A stretch of DNA of 64,000 nucleotides from a virus. Its lineage: Duplodnaviria; Caudoviricetes. Under the pieces are notes generated by a model, which saw only the letters and a program-made list of their open reading frames with translations, made no database searches and had not been told where the DNA came from. The position numbers and the translations under genes are program-made. This document shows positions 51 through 48,639 of this stretch, piece after piece (position 1 is the first letter of the stretch; the number at the start of each line of letters is the position of its first letter). The stretch spans positions 1-64,000 of the IMG/VR virus record IMGVR_UViG_3300020045_008916. One strand, given 5' to 3'.

Positions 51-3000
51 ATGCAAGATGTTGCCAGAAAAGTTGCTGATGAGTCTGTAACAAAACCTGA
101 GATGGACAAGCTTATAAAATATGCCCGTACGATGTATGATAGTGGCCATATCAAGACAGCACAAGAATTTCAGGATTACTTGCAGGTTGAAAATTCAACA
201 GTAAGAGAAGCATTTGAAAGGGTGCAGCAAGAGCAGACAGACGCTTACGTTGAAAAACAGAAAAAAGGTACTCAGGCACCAATCAAACAAACAATTAAGG
301 TAACTACTGAGGGAGGTACAGACGGAACGATTACACAGACTACCCGACAGGCTTTAAAGAAACAATTTGCTGATTTTAACAGAGGGATAAAAGAAGGTTT
401 AAAACAAGCTAGAGAGCAGACAAAAGAAAAAGCCCAGCTTGTAAAAGATACCAGAACAAACCTTAAAAAAGTCATCAGAGAATTTCCAAAAAGCTTAGAT
501 GGAAAAACAGTTCCTAAGGGAGTTACCTCAAGATTGCTTGTAGAATTGAACAGGGCAGCCGACAATATTGATAAGCTTGAAGATTTTGCCGATACGTTGG
601 AAAGGACAGCAGACGATTTAAACTATCTAACAAAAGTTGATAATGCAAAGACTCTTGTTGATAAAGTTAAGAAATTGGCCAAATCGAAAGAGATGCCATT
701 TGATTTAAGAAACCTTTTGAAACGTGTAGGGAATATCAACACCAAATTTGTACAGGATATCGAAGCGTTTAGTATTGCCCTAGATGAAATTTTAAAATTC
801 AGGATTTCTCCTACAATGGCAATTAGTGCGAAAGATGGTACTCCTCTGGCAAAGAACCTACAACAAAGCGAACAGGCCAAAGAATTGAACCGTCTATTAA
901 ATGAGCTTAGAAAACAGGAAACAGCATACTTACAGGCCAGAGCTGATAAGTTGAGTGAAAAGCTTAAAGCCAAAGGCATTGACCCGACAACTATTCAAAC
1001 ACTTCACGGTACAAACTATGAGGCTATGGTAGCAGCTTTAGAAGAGGTACTTGCAGGTACTAAGGTTTCCCGAGTTCAGCAAATGAGAGACGCTGGTATC
1101 ACATACCAAGCTATGGTGTACTTGAACGTAGACACTTCGGGAATGACCGAACAAGCTAAAAGTGATATTGCAACTCTTTCAAAGTTAGATTTTGAACTGC
1201 TGCCAGAAGCTAAGTTACCACTTGTGGTTGCTGGTTTTGCAAATTTAGTAAACAATAATAGTTTAGCAGGATTGGGACAGGCCATAACACAAAGTAAGAT
1301 ACAAACTAATTTGGCCAATACAACTTTAATGTCTAACATTAGAGCTAACATCAGACAAGCTGGGGCAAGAATGGCCAAAATACAAAAAGCCTTTGGCTCT
1401 GGTTCTGTTCGCATAGCGGCCTTAACAAAAGATATGATGAATGTTGGTTATTTAAATTCTGTGATGGGTTTGACAGATTTGAAAATAGCAACACAAAAAG
1501 TTGTAGTATACAGAGAAAATCTTGTAAAGGAAGAGAATGAACTTATTAAAAAATTCAAAAAAGATTTAGCTAATCCAGTAAATAATATGCTTTTAGGAAT
1601 TTACAGGGATATTGTGAATACGGAAGAGGGCTGGACTCAGGAACAGATTGATGCAGAACCTGCTTTAAGATTAACAGCTTTTGTAAAATCTTTAGAACTA
1701 TTAAAAGAAAAAGCAAAACTAGATGTAGGCTTTGCTAAGGACTACAAAGAATACATAGCCAACTATGAAACAGCCATAAACAAAATTGCTGTAGTAAAAA
1801 GAACAAGTACTGGTGAATTGGAGGCTGTAACTTTAAAAATGACTCCTCAACAACTATATAATTCACTTCCAGCAGGTCAGAGAGCTTACTCTACAATGGC
1901 CACGAGACGTTATGCGGAAAATGAGGCAGGTTTGATTTATAATTCTGAAGTCATGAACAATATTGATTTAGGAAATAAAATAGTAAACTATTCTCCAAGA
2001 ATGTACACGAAACTTGTCACAGGCAAAGATGTAGATTTTGGAGTTTTAGCTAAATCTATAACAGAGGGAGGACAAACCAGTACTAAGGGGCAAGTGTCAG
2101 GTTCTGGTAAGAGTAGGTTATTATCGGGCTCAGAGCTACCATCAAACTTAGCTTTAGACCCTAGCTTTGTAGAAAGATTTAAAGGGGAAATTACTAAAGC
2201 TGTTTATGACGTAGAAACCCAAAGGCATAGAATGTATGCTTACGAGGCAACTAACGAAACCTCATCCCCCTTTATTAAGGAATTGGAAAATGCTATTCCT
2301 GTTCAAACTTATAAAGAGATAATGTTAAACAAGATTAACAATGACCTACTAACATTAGGTGGTAGTCAAATAAAGTTAGAGGCTTGGAAAAGACTGGCAG
2401 GATACTTATCAAAGACAGGAACAGCTATTGGACTGGGAGCTTTAGGTCAATATTTAAAACAAATACCCCCAGTTGTTGATGTTGCTTTAAGAACACAATC
2501 ACAACCCAAAGCAATGTTGTTAGCTATTAAGTACTTAAACAGTGGGGGTACAGATATCGAGGAGTTGTTAAAAATTGCAAATGTTAAAGGAAGAGATGCT
2601 ATAAAACTTTTAAAAATTCCAAGTACAACAAGGGATAGAAAAATAGACACTAAAGAACTAGCAGGACTTTTAAAACAAATTGGTCTGACAGCTGAAGAAG
2701 TATCTAGTGTTTTAGCAGATTTTTCTTTAAAACCACTACAAATGTCAGACAAGTACGTGGCAGATTTAGGCTGGTTAACTTTTTACATGCACCACCAACT
2801 TGAGCATGGAAATTCTATTAATTTAGACCCTAAAAACCTAGATAGGTTGGCGTATGACTATGCAGATACACAAACTTCCGCAGTAATGAATGAGTCAGAC
2901 AATGCAATGCAAGCACAAGGTAAGCTTATTAATAGTAATTATGTTAAATATACAATGCCATTTATTCGTTTTGCTATTAACTCAAAATTAAATCTAATTA

Positions 3001-4097
3001 CAGATATATCTAAGTTAGGAGACAAAGGAAATACCAAAAGAGCTCAAAGTATCAAAGCCCTATCTGGTAATTTAATAGCTACAGCTACATTTATGGGACT
3101 CTCTGCGGGTATAAGATATTTAGCAGGAGGTGCAGCAATTGGTTTTATGTCTGCGGTAATTTTTGGTACTGCGGATGTAGATGATGAGGAAAAAGAAGAG
3201 CTCTTACAAATGATTAGTAAAAGCCAAAAAAATGAAGCTAGAAAGAAGCAAATAAGAGAAATAGGATATCTATCTACAGAGTTTTTAACAGGAGGTATAG
3301 CGGGTAATTTAACAGAGCCTCTCATTCGTCCTCTTAACAATCAATTTGCAAGGTGGGGAGGATATACAGAAGCTGAAATAAAAGAAGCCAATCAAAAACC
3401 AAATTCAGAAAGAGTTTTTGAAATGATAGGTACAGCGGGTATTACAATAAAGACAGCTGTAGACGCTTATCATAGTTTTGAAAATGTGTTCCAAAGCAAT
3501 GAAGATTTTATTGAGCAACATTATGGAGAGTTTGACCCTATAACTGGAAAACTAGTAGTAAACCCTTATCGTTTAGACCCTCAAAATATAGAGAGTTTTG
3601 CCAGACCACACTTCTCGAAAAAAATACAGATTGCATCTGCTTTGATAGAGGCAACTAGCTTGACAGGCCTTTCTCTTCAAGAAGTAAATACCTTCAAAAG
3701 AAATCTACAGAAGTATGACAGGATGGCTGTTGAAAAGTTAAGGGGAAAAGCTACCACCCAAAATCTAAAGGGTATGGTTGAAACCTATAATGACGTAAAA
3801 GAGATAGAAGTAGCCGATGAGAAGATAGCTCTGACACCAGAACAGGTGTTGAAAACCTTGGAGTACAGAGATGAGTTTATTTCTATCCTCACCAAAAAAT
3901 ATCCGTTCATTGAACAGAAGCTTTCACGAGAAGAGTATGCTAAGTTCTTGAGAACAGAAGCTACCAAAGTGGCAAAGGATAGGATAGGTTATGACATATT
4001 TATAGGAGGAGGAACAAGAACACCTACAGAGGCTATGAAAAAAGCAAGAGCCAAAGATGTTAAAAAACAAGTACAAATTGAATATGAAAATAAATAG
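51..4097 (+). CDS. Large helical virion-associated (ejected/inner-core-like) protein; may be the C-terminal part of a longer gene
   Basis: 1348-aa helical, Lys/Glu/Ala-rich ORF at the end of a structural operon; no catalytic motif recognised; the frame looks coding upstream of a TGA at 33-35. Confidence 0.5.
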   Translation: MQDVARKVADESVTKPEMDKLIKYARTMYDSGHIKTAQEFQDYLQVENSTVREAFERVQQEQTDAYVEKQKKGTQAPIKQTIKVTTEGGTDGTITQTTRQALKKQFADFNRGIKEGLKQAREQTKEKAQLVKDTRTNLKKVIREFPKSLDGKTVPKGVTSRLLVELNRAADNIDKLEDFADTLERTADDLNYLTKVDNAKTLVDKVKKLAKSKEMPFDLRNLLKRVGNINTKFVQDIEAFSIALDEILKFRISPTMAISAKDGTPLAKNLQQSEQAKELNRLLNELRKQETAYLQARADKLSEKLKAKGIDPTTIQTLHGTNYEAMVAALEEVLAGTKVSRVQQMRDAGITYQAMVYLNVDTSGMTEQAKSDIATLSKLDFELLPEAKLPLVVAGFANLVNNNSLAGLGQAITQSKIQTNLANTTLMSNIRANIRQAGARMAKIQKAFGSGSVRIAALTKDMMNVGYLNSVMGLTDLKIATQKVVVYRENLVKEENELIKKFKKDLANPVNNMLLGIYRDIVNTEEGWTQEQIDAEPALRLTAFVKSLELLKEKAKLDVGFAKDYKEYIANYETAINKIAVVKRTSTGELEAVTLKMTPQQLYNSLPAGQRAYSTMATRRYAENEAGLIYNSEVMNNIDLGNKIVNYSPRMYTKLVTGKDVDFGVLAKSITEGGQTSTKGQVSGSGKSRLLSGSELPSNLALDPSFVERFKGEITKAVYDVETQRHRMYAYEATNETSSPFIKELENAIPVQTYKEIMLNKINNDLLTLGGSQIKLEAWKRLAGYLSKTGTAIGLGALGQYLKQIPPVVDVALRTQSQPKAMLLAIKYLNSGGTDIEELLKIANVKGRDAIKLLKIPSTTRDRKIDTKELAGLLKQIGLTAEEVSSVLADFSLKPLQMSDKYVADLGWLTFYMHHQLEHGNSINLDPKNLDRLAYDYADTQTSAVMNESDNAMQAQGKLINSNYVKYTMPFIRFAINSKLNLITDISKLGDKGNTKRAQSIKALSGNLIATATFMGLSAGIRYLAGGAAIGFMSAVIFGTADVDDEEKEELLQMISKSQKNEARKKQIREIGYLSTEFLTGGIAGNLTEPLIRPLNNQFARWGGYTEAEIKEANQKPNSERVFEMIGTAGITIKTAVDAYHSFENVFQSNEDFIEQHYGEFDPITGKLVVNPYRLDPQNIESFARPHFSKKIQIASALIEATSLTGLSLQEVNTFKRNLQKYDRMAVEKLRGKATTQNLKGMVETYNDVKEIEVADEKIALTPEQVLKTLEYRDEFISILTKKYPFIEQKLSREEYAKFLRTEATKVAKDRIGYDIFIGGGTRTPTEAMKKARAKDVKKQVQIEYENK

Positions 4098-4099
4098 TT

Positions 4100-4315
4100 A
4101 TGGCTAAAGCGACCAAAAAGATATACAAGGTTCGTGATAAAACAACAGGCGAGTTTGTTTCTTTAGGCTATAGTAGGAAGTCACATTGGGCAACATTTCC
4201 CCATGTGGCTCTCCACTATTATGGAGGAGATAAAGACAATCTAATCATAGAACAATATGAAACAGTATACAAACAAAGTTTTAATGCGAAAGGAGAAGAA
4301 ATAAGTGGCAATTGA
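4100..4315 (+). CDS. Hypothetical protein
   Basis: ORF coupled to the upstream gene, AT-rich start context. Confidence 0.55.
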   Translation: MAKATKKIYKVRDKTTGEFVSLGYSRKSHWATFPHVALHYYGGDKDNLIIEQYETVYKQSFNAKGEEISGN

Positions 4316-29365: not shown

Positions 29366-29444
29366 GTTTTAGTACTCTGTGTTTTACAGGCTTGTAACCG
29401 TCTTTGGCCACATTGCTAGGTGCTTTTCAGGTTAAGCACCAAAC
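29366..29444 (-). ncRNA. Twister ribozyme, type P1
   Basis: Minus strand: UAG-CAA-UGUG-GC-CAAAG-ACGG-UUACAAGC-CUGU-AAAA-CACA-GAGUA-CUA; P2, P4, T1 (UAC/GUA) and T2 (GC/GC) all pair; P1 is extended by GUUU/AAAC around an inserted 7-bp hairpin. Confidence 0.85.
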
Positions 29445-30825: not shown

Positions 30826-31037
30826 AGCTTTATGGTTTCTAAATCTCCTCTTAAAATCCTACCTAGATAGGCGGTTTTGCCCTCATCAACTAAAAATAAT
30901 AATCTACCTATCTGCTTTAAGTCTTTTTTGAAACGTCCGTTTAACAAGCCTTCAAATACGCTTGGTGCAAGAATGCTTTTATGAGTTTCTACTAAAGCAA
31001 GTAATTGCTCGTTTGTTGTTAAGATATACTGTTTCAT
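30822..31037 (-). CDS. Hypothetical protein whose start codon lies in hammerhead stem III
   Basis: ATG at 31037-31035 within GAAACAATG. Confidence 0.6.
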   Translation of the reverse strand: MKQYILTTNEQLLALVETHKSILAPSVFEGLLNGRFKKDLKQIGRLLFLVDEGKTAYLGRILRGDLETIKL

Positions 31038-31086
31038 TGTTTCGTTATTTTTAACTCATCAGGCTAGACACACATCTAGCGACAAT
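31036..31086 (-). ncRNA. Hammerhead ribozyme, type III
   Basis: AUUG-UC|GCUAGA-UGUGUG-UCUAGC-CUGAUGA-GUUA-AAAA-UAAC-GAAA-CAAU; complete core and three paired stems; predicted cut between 31081 and 31080. Confidence 0.92.
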
Positions 31087-31540
31087 TTATTTACCCAAAC
31101 TCGTTGCCTAGTCTTTGGGGGCTCGCAATACCTGTACACTTTTATCGGTGTTATGGCTCAAATAGTCCTGTTTATGTGACTAATGCGGATTTGTTTTTGT
31201 TTCGGGTTGGAGTATCTCTTAATTCCCTACATTACGTTTTAAAGTTGCTATGTAATATTTAACCTAATCGCTTTGCGACATTTCACAACGTCCTACTAAC
31301 TTTCGGGATAAAACCCATATTCAATTGGTAACAACTAATTTGTTTGACTTGACATTTAATAAGCCATTGAGTTTATTCTCAATCCACCATTTAGAGGACG
31401 TGGAAAACCTGCATCTTTTAAGTCCCTGCAAGACTTTTTAGAAAATGTAACAGTCGTCTATATAGACCTCTCTTTTGTATAGACTTATCCTTATTTCATG
31501 ATTTAGCCACTGTTACATTCTTGTTGGTTACTTTCAACAC
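31087..31540 (-). ncRNA. Candidate ~455-nt structured non-coding RNA
   Basis: No ORF longer than about 11 codons on the minus strand; own promoter at 31543-31574; hairpins include AAUGUAACAGU/ACUGUUACAUU, AUUGAG/CUCAAU and GACGUU-GUGA-AAUGUC. Confidence 0.5.
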
Positions 31541-31542
31541 TT

Positions 31543-31574
31543 CAAAGGTAAGTATAAGATTTGGTATTTGCAAG
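31543..31574 (-). promoter_or_regulatory. Early-class Bacteroidota promoter
   Basis: CTTG-20 nt-TACCTTTG. Confidence 0.75.
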
Positions 31575-31749
31575 GGTTATTTTAAAATACTTGTATCATT
31601 GCTTTATTTGTGTGCTAGCTTGTAATTTGATAAGTGCTAACCTACTTTAAAGTTTTAGGTTCAAAGCCTCTTAATCATACTGCAAGCGTAACTTACTAAT
31701 TGGCGTGTATTGAACACTAATATATTTTAAACTCTATACAAAGAACTAT

Positions 31750-31814
31750 CTTTTGCTTAACTCATCAGAATAGGCTCAAAAGCTACCTATTGACGGCTGT
31801 TAGACCGTTTCGTT
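31750..31814 (-). ncRNA. Hammerhead ribozyme, type II, with pseudoknot
   Basis: AAC-GAAA-CGG-ucuaacag-CCG-UC|AAUAGG-uagCUUUUGag-CCUAUU-CUGAUGA-GUU-aag-CAAAAG; loop I CUUUUG pairs 6/6 with the 3' tail CAAAAG; predicted cut between 31792 and 31791. Confidence 0.92.
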
Positions 31815-31817
31815 TTT

Positions 31818-32027
31818 TTACTTGTTTGCTTTGTGCATTTCTCTTTCGTGTGTTAAAACATCAGCACACCACCTTACTTTATTCATTAAGGCAGTAGAGT
31901 TACCAAAACCATATTCAAAACTATTACAACCCAAATATATGTCACCTATTACATTTTTTAATTCTGCTGATAATTTAGCGGCTTTTGCAAACTTTGCATC
32001 TAATTGTTTTACTGTAAGTGTTTTCAT
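31818..32027 (-). CDS. Small early protein
   Basis: Own promoter; stop codon lies 3 nt before the type II hammerhead. Confidence 0.65.
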   Translation of the reverse strand: MKTLTVKQLDAKFAKAAKLSAELKNVIGDIYLGCNSFEYGFGNSTALMNKVRWCADVLTHEREMHKANK

Positions 32028-32081
32028 AATGCTAATATTTTTAGTTTTAAGGTGATTTCCTGCTTGTCACTTCCGACATAA

Positions 32082-32113
32082 CAAAGGTGTGAATAATATT
32101 TGATATACACAAT
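32082..32113 (-). promoter_or_regulatory. Early-class promoter
   Basis: ATTG-20 nt-CACCTTTG. Confidence 0.6.
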
Positions 32114-32866
32114 AGCAAGACAAAAATAAATACAATAAAGTTTAATATAATTTGTAAAGTGCTGATAATGAGAGAGATTAATTTTATATAAGATTTAAGA
32201 TAAAGCGGGATAGCTATAAGGTAGTAGGATATTTTGAGCTAAAAGTTGTTAGCTAACCATATCACAGGATTTAAAGGATAAGAGCTAATTAGCTACTACC
32301 TATAGGTGAATAACAAAGAGTGACACAATGACACGTATAAGATGACACGATATGATAGTTTGTCATGCTATAATAAATTGACAGCTAACAGAATATACCG
32401 AGCGGTATAATTAGTGGATGCTAAAATTGTTAGCAAAGGATGGATGTTATCAGCTAACCTACTAATTTAAGAGATAAGTAATATATACTATAAGATAGAT
32501 AACAAGACATAGGAGATATAAGGGTAAACAGGGGAGAGAGCAAGAGAGCGTGTAACGTGTTGCGGGATATCGTGCGGATTAGGTTGTTATTGTGCCTCAG
32601 ATAAGCTGAAAGGGTGATTATAGACTAGATGGATAAGTGAGGGAATATTAAAAGCACAATAGTATTATACCCTCATCTCACAAACATCTATCTAAATCTC
32701 TTTCAAAATACCCTCAAATCAATACTTAGTGTATCAAAGTGCCTCTAATTAGCCTCAAATATCCCAATTAACAAAGTGCCTTTAAAGCATCGTGAATAAA
32801 CTATTCCTCTAGGGCAGAGACTTGAATATCAATCACCCCCTTAGTGTATTTAGAACCGATTGGACG

Positions 32867-32900
32867 TAAAAAAGCCCTTAACAATTGCTTGCAAGGGCTT
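32867..32900 (-). terminator. Intrinsic terminator of the small-membrane-protein operon
   Basis: AAGCCCTT...AAGGGCTT followed by a T run on the minus strand. Confidence 0.7.
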
Positions 32901-32923
32901 CAACCATTAATAGCTGTCAATAT

Positions 32924-33031
32924 TCAGCTCATCTGCTTTATCCAATATGCCATCAGCACACACAAGATAAAGAAAGCTAACATAGCTAAATCAAATTGCT
33001 TTGGGTTTCTCGGGTTGCTAGCGTAGTTCAT
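32924..33031 (-). CDS. 35-aa membrane peptide (not in ORF track)
   Basis: MNYASNPRNPKQFDLAMLAFFILCVLMAYWIKQMS; ATGA overlap with the upstream gene. Confidence 0.5.
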   Translation of the reverse strand: MNYASNPRNPKQFDLAMLAFFILCVLMAYWIKQMS

Positions 33032-33183
33032 TTCAATAGGGTTATGTAAGCGATTGAATAAACAGCTAACAAAGCGACAGCTAAGCAGATTAGCACGGGT
33101 TTTAAACGTGACAAAGTGGCAGACAAGCCTCTGTACTTGTAGGTTGTGGCTAGAACTTCAAGGGTAAGTTTTAAATCTTTCAT
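33028..33183 (-). CDS. 51-aa membrane peptide (not in ORF track)
   Basis: MKDLKLTLEV...VLICLAVALLAVYSIAYITLLK. Confidence 0.55.
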   Translation of the reverse strand: MKDLKLTLEVLATTYKYRGLSATLSRLKPVLICLAVALLAVYSIAYITLLK

Positions 33184-33210
33184 TGTGATTATGTTTAAGG
33201 TTAAAGGGGT

Positions 33211-33342
33211 TTAGTAGCCCCCAAGAAATGTGATTTGAATATCTCCATTAGGTAGTTCGATAGCTTGGAATGTTACCCCGCTTTCGATGATGCCACTAAG
33301 CATCTCGCAAAATGTCTCGTTAGTTACTGTTAGTTGTTTCAT
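33211..33342 (-). CDS. 43-aa peptide (not in ORF track)
   Basis: MKQLTVTNETFCEMLSGIIESGVTFQAIELPNGDIQITFLGGY. Confidence 0.55.
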   Translation of the reverse strand: MKQLTVTNETFCEMLSGIIESGVTFQAIELPNGDIQITFLGGY

Positions 33343-33344
33343 AA

Positions 33345-33515
33345 CTATTTGCTGTTAGGTGAGAAGATAAAGAACACACTTGCAACGATAACGGCTAACA
33401 GCCCTGCAACGTAGTAGTTTGCAGGATTAACCGAGCTAACAGCAAATAAAGAGATGAGGCAAGCGAAAGCTAATGCTAAGAATGCGATTGAGATGATTTG
33501 GTGAGTAGTTTTCAT
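33345..33515 (-). CDS. Two-TM small membrane protein
   Basis: Likely start MKTTHQII at 33515, downstream of the promoter at 33563-33594. Confidence 0.6.
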   Translation of the reverse strand: MKTTHQIISIAFLALAFACLISLFAVSSVNPANYYVAGLLAVIVASVFFIFSPNSK

Positions 33516-33562
33516 AATGCTAATATTTTTAGTAAAAGCCGTAGCGTCATTGCTTGGCACTT

Positions 33563-33594
33563 CAAAGGTGCAAAATAGTATTGACATATGCAAG
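33563..33594 (-). promoter_or_regulatory. Early-class promoter
   Basis: CTTG-20 nt-CACCTTTG, followed by AAGTG as at 31543. Confidence 0.65.
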
Positions 33595-34107
33595 TGGCTA
33601 GTTGATATAGTGCAGATATTTCACGCTGTTAGTGTCACAATTACGTTACAAAAGAAATCAGCTAGCAATTTGCCCCATCACAGAGTGAAGCGGAGATATA
33701 GCCCAAAGGTATGAGCAACAAGCGATTTAGATAGCGAAGTGGTACAAGGGTACGTTTGCCACATCCGAAACGTTTGAGGGTAGCACCTTGAGATGAAAGA
33801 ATTGTTTTGGGATTGAAAGAGGGGGGAGGGGTGAAGGAGATTAAAAACCCGAGAGAGGGGGGTGATGAAGATGGGATGGGATAGACCCATGAAATCATAG
33901 ATATAATCCTGAAATCATATTCACGTTATTTCCCCCTAAAATTTTTAAATTTTCTGGCCTAAATTTTTCGAACTCCTTAGACGTACCCTTAAAAATCCTT
34001 TTAAAGATACCCAGCTGAGTAAGCCATCCAGAATAGAAAGATAATTGAAAATGTGATACTACCCTACACGAATTTTGGATAAAGAAGCTCTCACCATAGA
34101 AGTGGAA

Positions 34108-41754: not shown

Positions 41755-41827
41755 CGCATTCTCTCGGAGTCGAACCGAGGTACATCAGAGTCTGTCAGTC
41801 TGTGCTCTACCGCTGAGCTAAGAATGC
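41755..41827 (-). tRNA. Atypical tRNA with a non-canonical anticodon loop and no encoded CCA
   Basis: Acceptor GCATTCT/AGAATGC, D-arm GCTC-AGCGGTA-GAGC, T-arm CTCGG-TTCGACT-CCGAG; anticodon arm CAGA-CTGACAGAC-TCTG. Confidence 0.8.
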
Positions 41828-45363: not shown

Positions 45364-48300
45364 TTAGTGGCAACCAGCCCAAGTTTTGTTACAAATCCAT
45401 TCATGGCCGAGGGCTACATTAAGGTTCATCAGATTTCCTGTTTTCTGAATAGCATTAGCTATGGCTCTTGAAATATCGTTTGGCATAGTTATATACCACT
45501 TTTTACCGTGGGATACTGCACTAAGCTGTTCACCCTTCCATTCCTTAGCAAAAGCATTTGCCTCATCTTCTGTTTCAAAAACCTTGAACTCCATAAGCGT
45601 GGGATTAACAGCTAGTTGGTTCTCATCGTGGTACTCAATCATGCTACAACAATCTGGCCTACCTACAAAAGGGTCGGTACAATATCCTTTTTCTTCAAGC
45701 TCTTGCATCAAAAACATGGTTGTATATTTTGCACAGATAACCCCAGCACTCTGGAACAAGGCGTTAAGAATACTGTGCTGGCTCCTAATGTTTATTTTTC
45801 TACCATCGATACTCCTAATGTATTTTTTACCAGTGCTTAACCACTCCTTTTCCATAGCATCCTTAGCTTCTTTCAAAGCAGGTGCCGCTTCCCAAAAACC
45901 ATTATACAGTTCTTCGCCTCTTTCTCTCCCCACCACAAACATCTTCATTATTTTAGCTATTTGAGCACCATACGTTATGGAGTATTTGAAACTTTTAGCA
46001 TCTGACCTGCTGATACTCAGCACTTTAGCATTTACGGAGTGGATGTCATCGGGCTTTTCTGCAATCATAGCTTTTGAATATGCTATTCCATCTGTACCTC
46101 TGTAGCAATAGTGGCCTTCTATTCTAGCCTCCAAGCTACTGAAGTCAAAACCACATTGAAGAAAACCTACTCCTGCTCCAAACAAACTTCGCATTTCTAC
46201 CCCATACGTTGATGTTGGTCTAGCCACATTAGCAACACCTATGTGCTTGTACCTGTGTGTGTTGTGAGTTACAATACCGTTTGAAACATAGCTGTGTGCA
46301 TTTTCAATAGTAAGGTCATAAGTAGACTCTCTTCCTTTATAAATTAGAGATTTTATTTTTGTAGGTTTATAGTCTGGCTTGAAAGTATATTCTAAATATT
46401 GGTCATTCTCAATGTTCCATCTAATACCTCTACGTATTTGGCTGACAGTTTCTCTACAAACGCCATATTTTTCGGCTACTCTTCTATCGTCTCCCTTGTT
46501 ATATCCTTTTTTAAAATACTCCCTAATCTCTTCTATATCTTTTTGCTTTAGTTTTGTATCGGAACCCTGTCTCCTTCGCTTACCAATGCCCCCATGTAAT
46601 TTTATATCAAATTTATTTTCTTTGGAAGTGCCATATTTCAAATTGCTTAGGAAATTATTAAAAGTATTACCATCTAAATGTCTACACTCTAAATCTGACA
46701 AGCCTTGAAAAGTTTCAAGAACAGCTCTTCCGATAGATTTTCTTACTTTTGTTCTTCCATCTCCAACATAGAAATCAAAGGTTACAGGCCTTCCAGAGTG
46801 TTTCTCAGCAACCATCGGACTTAAGTACCTACCACGCTTTGTCCTAATTCTTCCCCAAGAGGATACTTCATACTTATCAAAACTGGGATATTCCTTCCAA
46901 ATTTCTTCCCCTTCATAAGAAAACACCAAATCGTTATCCTGTAATTCTTGGCACGTGACCCAACCCCTCTCAGTTAAAAATGGATGATTACCCGTGCATC
47001 TTAGCGTAGCTAAATTTTCTAGAGTCACTTCCCAAACATCTTTTATACCATTCTCAATTTTATCAATCGCTTTTTCGTATTTTCCAGTGTGTGTTAAAAC
47101 TCTATCTACATTTTCAATCACATCAACAATCCTTTTCAAACCATTGTTTGTAATTATTAACGTATCCTCAGTGACACAGGAAGCACCAATTTCTATTGCT
47201 GGTGTTGGTACTCGGCCATCCTCCTCGCGATAGTTTTTCAGAAATCCCGTATTTGGCACCTCGGTATCCATATCCATCTCCTCAATATCTCCACCTGCTA
47301 TGGTAGACTTTCTGTGGCGATATGTCAGGTAATCTGCAAAGTCTTTAGCAAAGGCAACTTTCTCTCCCAAGGCTATCAGATTAGGACAAAGCTCTTTCTC
47401 CACTCCAACCCGTACGGCAGGAGATGTTGGCACACGAACAGGTTTTCTATCTCCCAATCGCTTTTTGATTTTCATATACACCGTATCTTCATCAGCCTTT
47501 AGAAATTCCAATCGTTGTGCCTTGTATTTTCCTCCCATTGTGTCAGCGTACCACCTATCTAGGGCTTTAATCCTTTTGTCCAGTGGAATGGTCTGTTTCT
47601 TGCTATCCTTCGTTAAATCCCTCTCCTTCCAATCGCTCGGGTTCCAGCCCAGTTCTATTAAATACATTTTTACAGTATCCAAGTCATCAATCTCCGCTGG
47701 TACTTCTGTTTTCAAAGGTTCGGTCAGTGGAAGCGTATAGGTCGTTCCCTCGTATAAAAAGCTTTCACCATTTAAAGTAGCTCCCAAGTTTTCTGCAAAC
47801 CTAAGCATACTCTGGGTATAACTCCCATCTTTTTTGACCTGCTGTACAGGGGGAGTATAGAAACTCTTCTCTGTTTGGGTCAACTTCCTTTTGGGTAGTA
47901 TCGGATTTACCTTGTTCGCAAGTTCGGTAAGCTTATTGTCCAAGTCAATCAGAAGTCTCAATGCAAGCGGCTTATCAAAGAAGAAACCCAAAGTCTCCCG
48001 CCTGATTGCGATATCCGCTAGTTTATGTTCCTGCTTAATGGCCATTCGCCAGCCATCATATCCTGCCAGTTCCTGTGTAAGAGCTTTATATGTAGAAGCT
48101 GTGGATGAGCAATCCTGGATACAGTAGTCTGTCATTAAATCATTGAACTCCCAAAACTCTGCACCTTTAGGGTCACTCTTGTCAATATACCCTGCCTCAA
48201 TGCACTTTTCCCTATAATCTGTCTTGAAATTTCCTGTACGTAAACCCCAAGCCATCAGTCCATGCCCTCCCAATCTATCTGGATTTGACATTCTAGAAAG

Positions 48301-48639
48301 GATAAGCGTATCGAGAAATCGCATTTCCCTTCCAAAACACGTGTCTGATTGTTCCAAATATCCAATAGTATATTCAAGAACTCCAAACAATCTTAGAGCA
48401 GGTAAATCGAATTTTATACCATTGTGAGCTAGAATATAATCATAGGGCTCCAATGCGGCCTTCATCCAGTCTTTTGTGATATCTTCTTTTTCTGCTGAGA
48501 CATATTCACCAGTAGCATAGTCTCGAACTACCACACACCATAATCTTGCTGTATCTTTTAACTTGTAAGGAAAACTCCTATGGTCAATCATTTCTTCAAG
48601 AAGGTTGTTGGACTCTATATCTATGATACCTATTTTCAT
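45364..48639 (-). CDS. polA: Family A DNA polymerase (T7-like, 3'-5' exonuclease) interrupted by an intein
   Basis: IDIE, HNGIKFD and YCIQD exonuclease motifs; DFSSLEARI, KSFKYSITYG and YHDE polymerase motifs. Confidence 0.92.
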   Translation of the reverse strand: MKIGIIDIESNNLLEEMIDHRSFPYKLKDTARLWCVVVRDYATGEYVSAEKEDITKDWMKAALEPYDYILAHNGIKFDLPALRLFGVLEYTIGYLEQSDTCFGREMRFLDTLILSRMSNPDRLGGHGLMAWGLRTGNFKTDYREKCIEAGYIDKSDPKGAEFWEFNDLMTDYCIQDCSSTASTYKALTQELAGYDGWRMAIKQEHKLADIAIRRETLGFFFDKPLALRLLIDLDNKLTELANKVNPILPKRKLTQTEKSFYTPPVQQVKKDGSYTQSMLRFAENLGATLNGESFLYEGTTYTLPLTEPLKTEVPAEIDDLDTVKMYLIELGWNPSDWKERDLTKDSKKQTIPLDKRIKALDRWYADTMGGKYKAQRLEFLKADEDTVYMKIKKRLGDRKPVRVPTSPAVRVGVEKELCPNLIALGEKVAFAKDFADYLTYRHRKSTIAGGDIEEMDMDTEVPNTGFLKNYREEDGRVPTPAIEIGASCVTEDTLIITNNGLKRIVDVIENVDRVLTHTGKYEKAIDKIENGIKDVWEVTLENLATLRCTGNHPFLTERGWVTCQELQDNDLVFSYEGEEIWKEYPSFDKYEVSSWGRIRTKRGRYLSPMVAEKHSGRPVTFDFYVGDGRTKVRKSIGRAVLETFQGLSDLECRHLDGNTFNNFLSNLKYGTSKENKFDIKLHGGIGKRRRQGSDTKLKQKDIEEIREYFKKGYNKGDDRRVAEKYGVCRETVSQIRRGIRWNIENDQYLEYTFKPDYKPTKIKSLIYKGRESTYDLTIENAHSYVSNGIVTHNTHRYKHIGVANVARPTSTYGVEMRSLFGAGVGFLQCGFDFSSLEARIEGHYCYRGTDGIAYSKAMIAEKPDDIHSVNAKVLSISRSDAKSFKYSITYGAQIAKIMKMFVVGRERGEELYNGFWEAAPALKEAKDAMEKEWLSTGKKYIRSIDGRKINIRSQHSILNALFQSAGVICAKYTTMFLMQELEEKGYCTDPFVGRPDCCSMIEYHDENQLAVNPTLMEFKVFETEDEANAFAKEWKGEQLSAVSHGKKWYITMPNDISRAIANAIQKTGNLMNLNVALGHEWICNKTWAGCH
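46261..47178 (-). mobile_element. 306-aa intein with a NUMOD4/HNH homing endonuclease
   Basis: Starts CVTEDT (residue 488), ends YVSNGIVTHN before Thr+1; internal WKEYP..KYEVSSWGRI and CRHLDGNTFNNFLSNLKY. Confidence 0.9.

What the first reader, a model, noticed from the sequence alone, without database searches (positions are those of the whole stretch)
31750..31814. Type II hammerhead with a perfect 6-bp loop I/3'-tail pseudoknot, 3 nt after a stop codon
The core is exact (CUGAUGA, GAAA, GUC). Stem II is only 3 bp, but CUUUUG in loop I pairs with CAAAAG 3 nt past stem II, the tertiary contact described for bacterial and phage type II hammerheads. It would clip the monocistronic mRNA of 31818..32027 right after its stop.
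Basis: partly seen in the sequence, partly recalled or inferred. Interest (0 to 1): 0.7.

Follow-up and report, generated by a model that had tools for sequence, protein, structure and literature searches.

The report
Phage type II hammerhead ribozyme

Summary
The motif is real. Minus strand 31814..31750 has every invariant hammerhead core base in the type II order, with stem I of 6 bp plus a U-G pair, stem III of 4 bp plus A15.1-U16.1, and stem II of 3 bp. It starts 3 nt after the TAA of a 69-aa gene. My descriptor finds it once in the 74-kb phage, against 0.004 hits per simulated genome. Rfam Hammerhead_II aligns full length at 25.6 bits, below its 37-bit cut-off, and only when the short stretch is searched. 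The same cut-off also missed 16 of 17 comparable phage hammerheads.

A distant phage (G051, large terminase (TerL) 26% identical) has the same layout: terminator, promoter, unrelated small ORF, type II hammerhead. There all stems still pair, with four compensatory changes in stem I and an inserted pair in stem III.

The 6-bp CUUUUG/CAAAAG pairing exists, but 3 of its 6 pairs fail in G051. An overlapping 4-bp register directly after stem II (GCUU/AAGC) is kept there with one compensatory change. Which register is the tertiary contact is unresolved.

Sitting on a stop codon is typical: 26 of 36 related hammerheads do. This scan has noted the same kind in about 100 other genomes. It is a new member of a known kind.

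The parts
31750..31814 (-). Type II hammerhead ribozyme, including the 3' tail that carries both candidate pseudoknot registers
   Evidence: Own descriptor, single hit in the genome; RF02276 full-length match at 25.6 bits; homologue in G051 with compensatory changes
31792..31792 (-). C17; predicted cut between 31792 and 31791, leaving a 2',3'-cyclic phosphate on the ORF69 RNA and a 5'-OH on the downstream RNA
   Evidence: GUC triplet follows stem III; the end chemistry comes from established hammerhead knowledge (PMC8782182) and was not tested here
31769..31791 (-). Stem I (6 Watson-Crick pairs plus U-G) with the 9-nt loop I, AGCUUUUGA, at 31784-31776
   Evidence: Compared with G051, 4 of 7 pairs changed on both sides and 1 on one side, and all still pair
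31794..31807 (-). Stem III hairpin, CGGU-CUAACA-GCCG. After cleavage it stays at the 3' end of the ORF69 RNA
   Evidence: G051 has one extra A-U pair, and U-A where the window has U-G, with loop GUAACA
31762..31768 (-). Core CUGAUGA (C3-A9)
   Evidence: Exact match
31808..31811 (-). Core GAAA (G12, A13, A14, A15.1)
   Evidence: Exact match
31755..31758 (-). Tail AAGC: 4-bp pseudoknot register directly after stem II, pairing with loop GCUU 31783-31780
   Evidence: Kept in G051 as AGGC/GCCU, with one pair changed on both sides; this geometry is typical of the class
31750..31755 (-).
   Evidence: Perfect complement in the window; 3 of 6 pairs are broken in G051; chance p 0.014-0.056
31818..32027 (-). 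ORF69, a small conserved protein of unknown function, whose stop lies 3 nt before the ribozyme
   Evidence: No hit in the word-based search, but three homologues of 67-94 aa at 48-57% identity in the exhaustive search. No Pfam or PHROG family
32064..32089 (-). Probable promoter and start of the leader of ORF69 (CACCTTTG ... GTCGGAAGTGACAA)
   Evidence: 48-nt stretch 77% identical to G001 2625-2672, which also lies ahead of an early region; that it acts as a promoter is inferred
32868..32900 (-). Terminator-like hairpin (8-bp stem then a T run) that closes the upstream operon
   Evidence: Read from the sequence; not flagged by the scan tool because its loop exceeds 8 nt
31671..31746 (-). Start of the downstream ORF-free RNA, with GTTCTTT (31746-31740) and GTTACGCTTGCAGTATGATTAA (31692-31671) shared with phages G051 and G002
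31034..31088 (-). Context: type III hammerhead on the same strand, 711 nt downstream of the type II cut
   Evidence: RF00008 at 36.5 bits, E 9.8e-6; own descriptor
29369..29419 (-). Context: twister-P1 ribozyme on the same strand
   Evidence: RF03160 at 34.2 bits, E 3.6e-5

Best explanation
This is a functional type II hammerhead ribozyme in the early, minus-strand transcription unit of an uncultured 74-kb phage of Flavobacteriia-like hosts. When RNA polymerase transcribes past ORF69, the RNA folds into stems I, II and III around the canonical core. A pseudoknot between loop I and the tail just past stem II holds stems I and II side by side, and the RNA cuts itself after C31792. The ORF69 message is then released as an RNA of roughly 285 nt (inferred). 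It ends 26 nt after its stop codon in the stem III hairpin, with a 2',3'-cyclic phosphate. The downstream ORF-free RNA starts with a 5'-OH at the stem I hairpin. No intrinsic terminator was seen between ORF69 and the next promoter, so the ribozyme acts as the boundary that uncouples the two RNAs. Shown here: the motif, its rarity by chance, conservation with compensatory changes, and the typical position at stop codons. Inferred: that cleavage occurs, which pseudoknot register is used, and what cleavage does to stability or translation.
For: All invariant core bases and the G10.1-C11.1 pair are present. The descriptor hits once in the genome, against 0.0043 per simulated genome and 0 of 3000 with stems this long. 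RF02276 aligns full length at 25.6 bits. G051 has the same order of elements (terminator, promoter, an unrelated 47-aa ORF whose stop overlaps stem II by 1 nt, type II hammerhead, then about 590 nt free of ORFs that shares sequence blocks with the window) and all stem pairs stay intact. Stem I shows 4 changes on both sides and 1 on one side. Stem III has a whole pair inserted. When the 3' partners are slid by 1-3 columns as a control, pairing falls from 100% to 24-34%. The upstream ORFs are unrelated, so the conservation is not a by-product of coding sequence. Among 40 type II hammerheads with the same AAC/GUU stem II, 26 of 36 start within 5 nt of, or overlap, an upstream stop codon (median 0). 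The 7 with a 3-bp stem II have long loops I (6-17 nt) and 3-6 bp pseudoknots starting 0-2 nt after stem II. The 33 with 4-6 bp stems II mostly have 3-5 nt loops and no pseudoknot. Two other self-cleaving ribozymes lie on the same strand within 2.5 kb. The literature reports type II hammerheads with this pseudoknot, stems II as short as 1-2 bp, and clusters flanking genes in prophages (PMC3088659). Three predicted type II hammerheads of Desulfovibrio vulgaris were shown to cleave in vivo (PMC8782182).
Against: The Rfam score is below the 37-bit gathering cut-off, and the motif is missed in larger searches. Only one homologue was found, so the covariation rests on two sequences: 23 of 500 shuffles reach the observed value. 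The hammerhead fold without the pseudoknot (-9.2 kcal/mol) is less stable than a competing fold (-12.3), and the 76-nt stretch folds no better than shuffles (z -0.86). None of 5 fully scanned and 50 CM-scanned relatives by large terminase has a type II hammerhead. Relative G002 carries the downstream conserved block behind a promoter with no ribozyme. So the element is dispensable for this phage group. No cleavage data exist.
Confidence: 0.85

Rival explanations
1. The ribozyme exists mainly to make the 5' end of the downstream ORF-free RNA, or together with the type III hammerhead at 31034-31088 to excise a defined 711-nt RNA that a host RtcB-type ligase could circularise. Trimming the ORF69 message would then be secondary.
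For: In G051 the hammerhead stays with downstream sequence blocks (GTTCTTT directly after the tail; GTTACGCT.TGCAGTATG.TTAA further on), while the upstream ORF is unrelated. Two hammerheads bracket 711 nt free of ORFs in the window. Both cuts would leave a 5'-OH and a cyclic phosphate.
Against: G051 has no second hammerhead in the 14 kb downstream. G002 has the conserved block behind a promoter with no hammerhead. The phage encodes no RtcB. Most class members have a start codon within 40 nt downstream, 29 of 38, which points to a general role as a separator between genes. An internal promoter box (TACCTTTG at 31550-31543) lies inside the 711 nt.
Confidence: 0.2
2. It is a chance look-alike or a decayed, inactive relic of a hammerhead.
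For: The score is below the Rfam cut-off. Stem II has only 3 bp, two of them A-U. The thermodynamic signal is not better than shuffles. The scan has read about 250,000 windows, so some chance hits to a relaxed descriptor are expected overall.
Against: No simulated genome gave stems this long (0 of 3000). The core is perfect. The homologue shows compensatory changes. The position at a stop codon and the architecture are typical of the class. Two more ribozymes lie on the same strand. Rfam's cut-off also missed 16 of 17 descriptor-perfect hammerheads of this class.
Confidence: 0.06
3. The hairpin at 31792-31809 followed by a T run is a plus-strand intrinsic terminator, and the hammerhead reading is incidental.
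For: The consensus scan lists it as terminator-like on the plus strand. The equivalent plus-strand sequence in G051 is also a hairpin followed by T-rich sequence.
Against: The stem is weak (5 pairs including G-U, 8-nt loop). No credible plus-strand gene ends upstream; the plus strand of 31038-31817 holds only short TTG-started ORFs of 52 aa or less. The T run is simply the complement of the TAA stop plus A-rich spacer and of the GAAA core. A terminator does not explain the conserved CUGAUGA or the compensatory changes in stem I, which lies outside that hairpin.
Confidence: 0.03

Closest known systems
Type II hammerhead ribozymes with a loop I / 3'-tail pseudoknot (Perreault et al. 2011, PMC3088659; Rfam RF02276)
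   Same: Same core, same circular permutation (stem II open, stems I and III capped), very short stem II, and a Watson-Crick contact between loop I and the bases after stem II. Found in phage DNA between or after small genes.
   Different: The stems are AT-rich and stem II is AAC/GUU, where the Rfam consensus has GC...GC followed by AGCCAAAG. The score is 25.6 bits against a 37-bit cut-off. The U-rich loop and A-rich tail allow two overlapping pseudoknot registers (4 bp at 0 nt, or 6 bp at 3 nt after stem II).
Type II hammerhead of IMG/VR phage contig IMGVR_UViG_3300032373_000004 (G051; L491 1200-1130, minus strand)
   Same: Direct homologue (76% identity over the ribozyme). Same stem lengths for stems I and II, near-identical loop III (GUAACA against CUAACA), the same 9-nt loop I frame, and the same layout of terminator, promoter, small ORF, ribozyme and long ORF-free stretch.
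   Different: Large terminase (TerL) is only 26% identical. The upstream ORF is unrelated. Stem III is one pair longer. Only the 4-bp pseudoknot register can form. No second hammerhead lies downstream.
Clustered hammerheads flanking single genes in prophages (Perreault et al. 2011, Figure 3; PMC3088659)
   Same: Several self-cleaving ribozymes on one strand at gene boundaries of a phage early region: here type II, type III and twister within 2.5 kb.
   Different: Here three different ribozyme architectures are mixed. The type II unit is followed by about 700 nt free of ORFs rather than by the next start codon.
Type II hammerheads of Desulfovibrio vulgaris shown to cleave in vivo (cyPhyRNA-seq, PMC8782182)
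   Same: Same ribozyme type, near phage-like genes. That study shows predicted type II hammerheads are active in cells.
   Different: Different host phylum. No sequence relationship was tested here.

Membership tests
Hammerhead ribozyme, type II (RF02276) | Invariant core: C3 U4 G5 A6 N7 G8 A9, G12 A13 A14, A15.1-U16.1, and H17 not G | tested here: met
   CUGAUGA 31768-31762, GAAA 31811-31808, U31793, C31792
Hammerhead ribozyme, type II (RF02276) | Three helices around the core in the type II order: stem II open, stems III and I closed by loops, with a G10.1-C11.1 pair | tested here: met
   Stems of 7 / 3 / 4(+1) pairs; G31761-C31812 closes stem II
Hammerhead ribozyme, type II (RF02276) | Score at or above Rfam's gathering cut-off (37 bits) | tested here: not met
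   25.6 bits, full-length alignment, E 9.5e-4 in an 89-nt search. The same cut-off reported only 1 of 17 descriptor-perfect hammerheads of the AAC/GUU class, so this is a limit of the model and not a structural failure
Hammerhead ribozyme, type II (RF02276) | [quoted passage not shown] | tested here: met
   GCUU/AAGC at 0 nt spacing and CUUUUG/CAAAAG at 3 nt spacing are both present. Which one is used is inconclusive
Hammerhead ribozyme, type II (RF02276) | Helices supported by compensatory changes in homologues | tested here: met
   One homologue only: 100% of cells paired, 5 pairs changed on both sides, and slid controls at 24-34% paired. With two sequences this is weak statistically
Hammerhead ribozyme, type II (RF02276) | Site-specific self-cleavage giving a 2',3'-cyclic phosphate and a 5'-OH | not testable with these tools
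   Needs an in vitro transcript or RNA from infected cells
Rho-independent terminator (plus strand) | Stable GC-rich hairpin followed by a U run, at the end of a gene on the same strand | tested here: not met
   5-pair stem including G-U, with an 8-nt loop; no credible plus-strand gene upstream

The most novel reading that the evidence does not exclude
The U-rich loop I and A-rich tail give this ribozyme two mutually exclusive pseudoknot registers: 4 bp stacked on stem II, and 6 bp three bases further on. If one register supports catalysis and the other does not, the slip between them could set or regulate the cleavage rate, for example with temperature, Mg2+ or a ribosome terminating 3 nt upstream. 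Separately, ribozymes in these phages may be interchangeable boundary modules. A twister in the window and a type I hammerhead in a relative occupy the same slot, 13 nt before homologous genes. A type II hammerhead in the window and a promoter in G002 both precede the same conserved RNA.
Probability: 0.12. Interest if true: 0.55.

Novelty: new member of a known kind. Interest (0 to 1): 0.27.

Why it matters
The element adds one well-supported example to a class whose biological role is still unproven (PMC6765202). There are three practical points. First, Rfam's cut-off and filters miss most AT-rich phage type II hammerheads, so standard annotation undercounts them. Second, the ribozyme is conserved between two distantly related phages while the gene in front of it is swapped, which fits a boundary module and not a gene-specific regulator. 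Third, the two competing pseudoknot registers give a clean and cheap mutational test of which contact geometry a 3-bp-stem-II hammerhead uses.

Tried and rejected
1. Close relatives by single protein: ORF69 and the large terminase against viral contigs gave nothing. Megablast of 4 kb against cultured phages gave nothing.

2. An exact 19-mer of the ribozyme in viral contigs gave 0 hits.

3. The pattern CGTC..CTGATGA..AGCNAAAG retrieved only the GC-rich canonical type II group, including arrays of 10 and 5 copies. These are not relatives of this element, and their tail pairs through GCCA, not AAAG.

4. A pattern fixing the 6-bp pseudoknot (CTTTTG..CTGATGA..CAAAAG) gave more than 114 matches. All were coding-sequence coincidences; the two weak descriptor hits are not credible. 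No other hammerhead using that pairing was found.

5. RF02276 through the genome search found nothing on 5 cultured Cellulophaga/Flavobacterium phages or on 50 IMG/VR relatives by large terminase. The same tool misses the window's own element, so these negatives are weak. My descriptor on 5 complete relatives found only one type I hammerhead.

7. No further Rfam family was found in 31990-33700. No RtcB is encoded in the phage.

8. I did not build a covariance model from the AAC/GUU-class hits to score the window. The retrieval pattern was derived from the window, so the score would be circular.

Full report
**What is there.** The window is 64 kb of a 74,165-bp IMG/VR phage record estimated 96% complete. 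Its large terminase (TerL) is 27-28% identical to those of Cellulophaga phages phi18:3 and phi46:3 (Pachyviridae) and Flavobacterium 'elemo' phages. The host is therefore probably a member of the Flavobacteriia. Genes from about 21 to 51 kb run on the minus strand.

On that strand ORF69 (32027..31818) ends in TAA. Three A's follow, and then the order is:
- AAC (stem II, 5' arm)
- GAAA
- CGGU-CUAACA-GCCG (stem III)
- U, then C (the cut site)
- AAUAGGU-AGCUUUUGA-GCCUAUU (stem I and loop I)
- CUGAUGA
- GUU (stem II, 3' arm)
- AAGCAAAAG (tail)

Every invariant hammerhead position is consensus, including G10.1-C11.1, A15.1-U16.1 and C17. The order of the elements is the type II permutation.

**More than chance.**
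- A relaxed type II descriptor, with no pseudoknot required, finds exactly this site in the whole genome on both strands.
- In 3000 simulated genomes with the same dinucleotide statistics it found 13 sites (0.0043 per genome). None had stems of at least 6/4/3 bp.
- Rfam's Hammerhead_II model aligns end to end (positions 1-66 of 66) at 25.6 bits, E 9.5e-4, when only 89 nt are searched.
- The model missed the site at the gathering threshold on the whole window, in a 361-nt E-value scan and through the genome search.

The sub-threshold score is not a sign of a defective motif. Of 17 loci that each hold a descriptor-perfect type II hammerhead of the same stem II class, Rfam at its cut-off reported that hammerhead in only one. 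The Rfam consensus is GC-rich, with GC...GC followed by AGCCAAAG.

**Homologue and covariation.** No close relative of the phage is available. A collection-wide pattern that fixed only the core plus AAC/GUU gave 51 viral and 93 genomic stretches, of which 40 are distinct, well-formed type II hammerheads.

One of them is a true homologue, in the 76.6-kb contig G051 (L491). BLAST aligns the ribozyme at 76% identity, and the surroundings have the same layout:
- a terminator hairpin
- a Bacteroidetes-type promoter
- a 47-aa ORF whose TAA overlaps stem II by one base
- the hammerhead
- GTTCTTT directly after the tail
- about 590 nt free of ORFs, containing the block GTTACGCT.TGCAGTATG.TTAA that the window has at 31692-31671

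The two phages are distant (TerL 26% identical) and the two upstream ORFs are unrelated. On the pairwise alignment all stem pairs form in both sequences. In stem I, 4 of 7 pairs differ on both sides and one on one side. Stem III gains a whole A-U pair and changes U-G to U-A. Sliding the 3' partners by 1-3 columns drops pairing from 100% to 24-34%. With only two sequences the shuffle control is modest (23 of 500). The pattern is nonetheless what a conserved RNA structure predicts, and what a coding or terminator reading does not.

**The pseudoknot.** By chance it has p of about 0.014 with random tails and 0.056 when the genome's own tail is shuffled. In G051, however, 3 of these 6 pairs cannot form.

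An overlapping, mutually exclusive register lies directly after stem II. Loop G31783-C-U-U31780 pairs with tail A31758-A-G-C31755. It is present in both phages, with one pair changed on both sides: U-A in the window, C-G in G051.

Three further points bear on the geometry:
- In my set, the seven hammerheads with a 3-bp stem II have loops I of 6-17 nt and 3-6 bp pseudoknots starting 0-2 nt after stem II. The 33 with 4-6 bp stems II mostly have 3-5 nt loops and no pseudoknot.
- With the 4-bp register, stem II (3 bp) plus the pseudoknot (4 bp) equals stem I (7 bp) in both phages. This is my own geometric inference.

A 4-bp match at that position is not rare by chance, though (p 0.075-0.20). Nearest-neighbour energies are similar: -2.8 kcal/mol for the 6-bp duplex and -1.8 for the 4-bp duplex, against -4.2 for the 4-bp duplex in G051. 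I therefore regard the register as unresolved. Conservation favours the 4-bp contact, and rarity favours the 6-bp one.

**Context and likely role.**
- ORF69 is a real small gene. The word-based search found nothing, but the exhaustive search found three homologues of 67-94 aa at 48-57% identity. It has no Pfam or PHROG family.
- Upstream lie a terminator-like hairpin (32900-32868), about 740 nt free of ORFs, and a promoter/leader block (32089-32064) shared with relative G001.
- No intrinsic terminator was found on the minus strand between the ribozyme and the next promoter-like box at 31550-31543.
- A type III hammerhead (36.5 bits) lies 711 nt downstream of the cut and a twister-P1 (34.2 bits) lies further on. 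Both are on the same strand.
- Among the 40 related type II hammerheads, 26 of 36 begin within 5 nt of, or overlap, the stop codon of an upstream same-strand ORF (median gap 0). In 29 of 38 the next start codon is within 40 nt.

The best-supported mechanism is therefore co-transcriptional self-cleavage that separates neighbouring RNAs. The ORF69 RNA would end in the stem III hairpin with a cyclic phosphate, and the downstream RNA would begin with a 5'-OH at the stem I hairpin. What follows for stability or translation is inference. The literature still calls the function of such bacterial and phage ribozymes unproven and suggests processing of polycistronic transcripts (PMC6765202).

**Limits.**
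- The hammerhead fold without the pseudoknot (-9.2 kcal/mol) is less stable than a competing fold (-12.3). The 76-nt stretch is not better than shuffles (z -0.86). This is common for three-way-junction ribozymes, but it gives no positive support.
- The element is sporadic. Five fully scanned relatives have only one hammerhead, a type I. Fifty relatives gave no RF02276 match, although that tool also misses this element.
- Relative G002 (TerL 43%) carries the conserved downstream block behind a promoter and has no ribozyme.
- The plus-strand terminator-like call is the complement of stem III plus the A-rich spacer. It has no gene to terminate.

**Standing.** This is a new member of a known kind. 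The architecture, the pseudoknot and the placement next to small phage genes were described in 2011. Type II hammerheads have been shown to cleave in vivo.

Noticed in passing
window 29369-29419 (-) and L337:710-769 (+): Ribozyme class swap at one slot. In the window a twister-P1 ends 13 nt before the ATG (29355) of a 159-aa gene, with leader AACAAATCACGAA. In a metagenome contig the 61%-identical homologue is preceded, also 13 nt upstream, by a type I hammerhead with leader AAAAATCACGATT. G001 and L425 also carry type I hammerheads upstream of homologues of this gene.
   Followed up: partly
window 31671-31692 (-); L604:1533-1554 (+); L491:923-945 (-): A 22-nt block, GTTACGCTTGCAGTATGATTAA, is conserved within ORF-free RNA of three phages whose large terminases are 26-43% identical to the window's. 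In G002 it follows a promoter, not a hammerhead.
   Followed up: partly
L461-L499 (17 loci): Rfam at its gathering threshold reported only 1 of 17 descriptor-perfect type II hammerheads with an AAC/GUU(C) stem II in phage contigs. AT-rich phage hammerheads are systematically undercounted.
   Followed up: partly
L337:431-490 and 710-769; L491 1200-1143; window 31798-31803: Type I and type II hammerheads of these phages share a stem III capped by a (G/C)UAACA loop. The window's type II and type III copies also share CUGAUGAGUUAA and AACGAAAC. This suggests that the permuted types are related to each other.
   Followed up: no
window 32064-32089 (-) and L207:2625-2672 (+): An early promoter/leader block, CACCTTTG..GTCGGAAGTGACAA, is shared with relative G001. 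There it precedes an ORF-free stretch that appears to contain a tRNA-like sequence, read by eye and not run through a tRNA finder.
   Followed up: partly
window 32130-32865 (-): About 740 nt free of ORFs between a terminator-like hairpin and the ORF69 promoter, with repeated GTGTCA and TTAGCT words. It could be a replication origin or a regulatory region. No Rfam family matches.
   Followed up: no
window 45364-48639 (-): The 1091-aa DNA polymerase ORF carries an internal segment that matches HNH endonuclease and intein-containing PHROG families (residues about 480-790). This suggests an intein or homing-endonuclease insert. Several large-terminase homologues of relatives also carry intein Pfam domains.
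   Followed up: no
L013 (minus strand, 210-4132); L035 8647-11079: GC-rich viral contigs with arrays of 10 and 5 canonical type II hammerheads within about 4 kb and 2.5 kb.
   Followed up: no
window 41755-41827 (-): The single tRNA gene of the window, with an unusual anticodon arm (48.7 bits, 4-nt insert at the anticodon loop).
   Followed up: no
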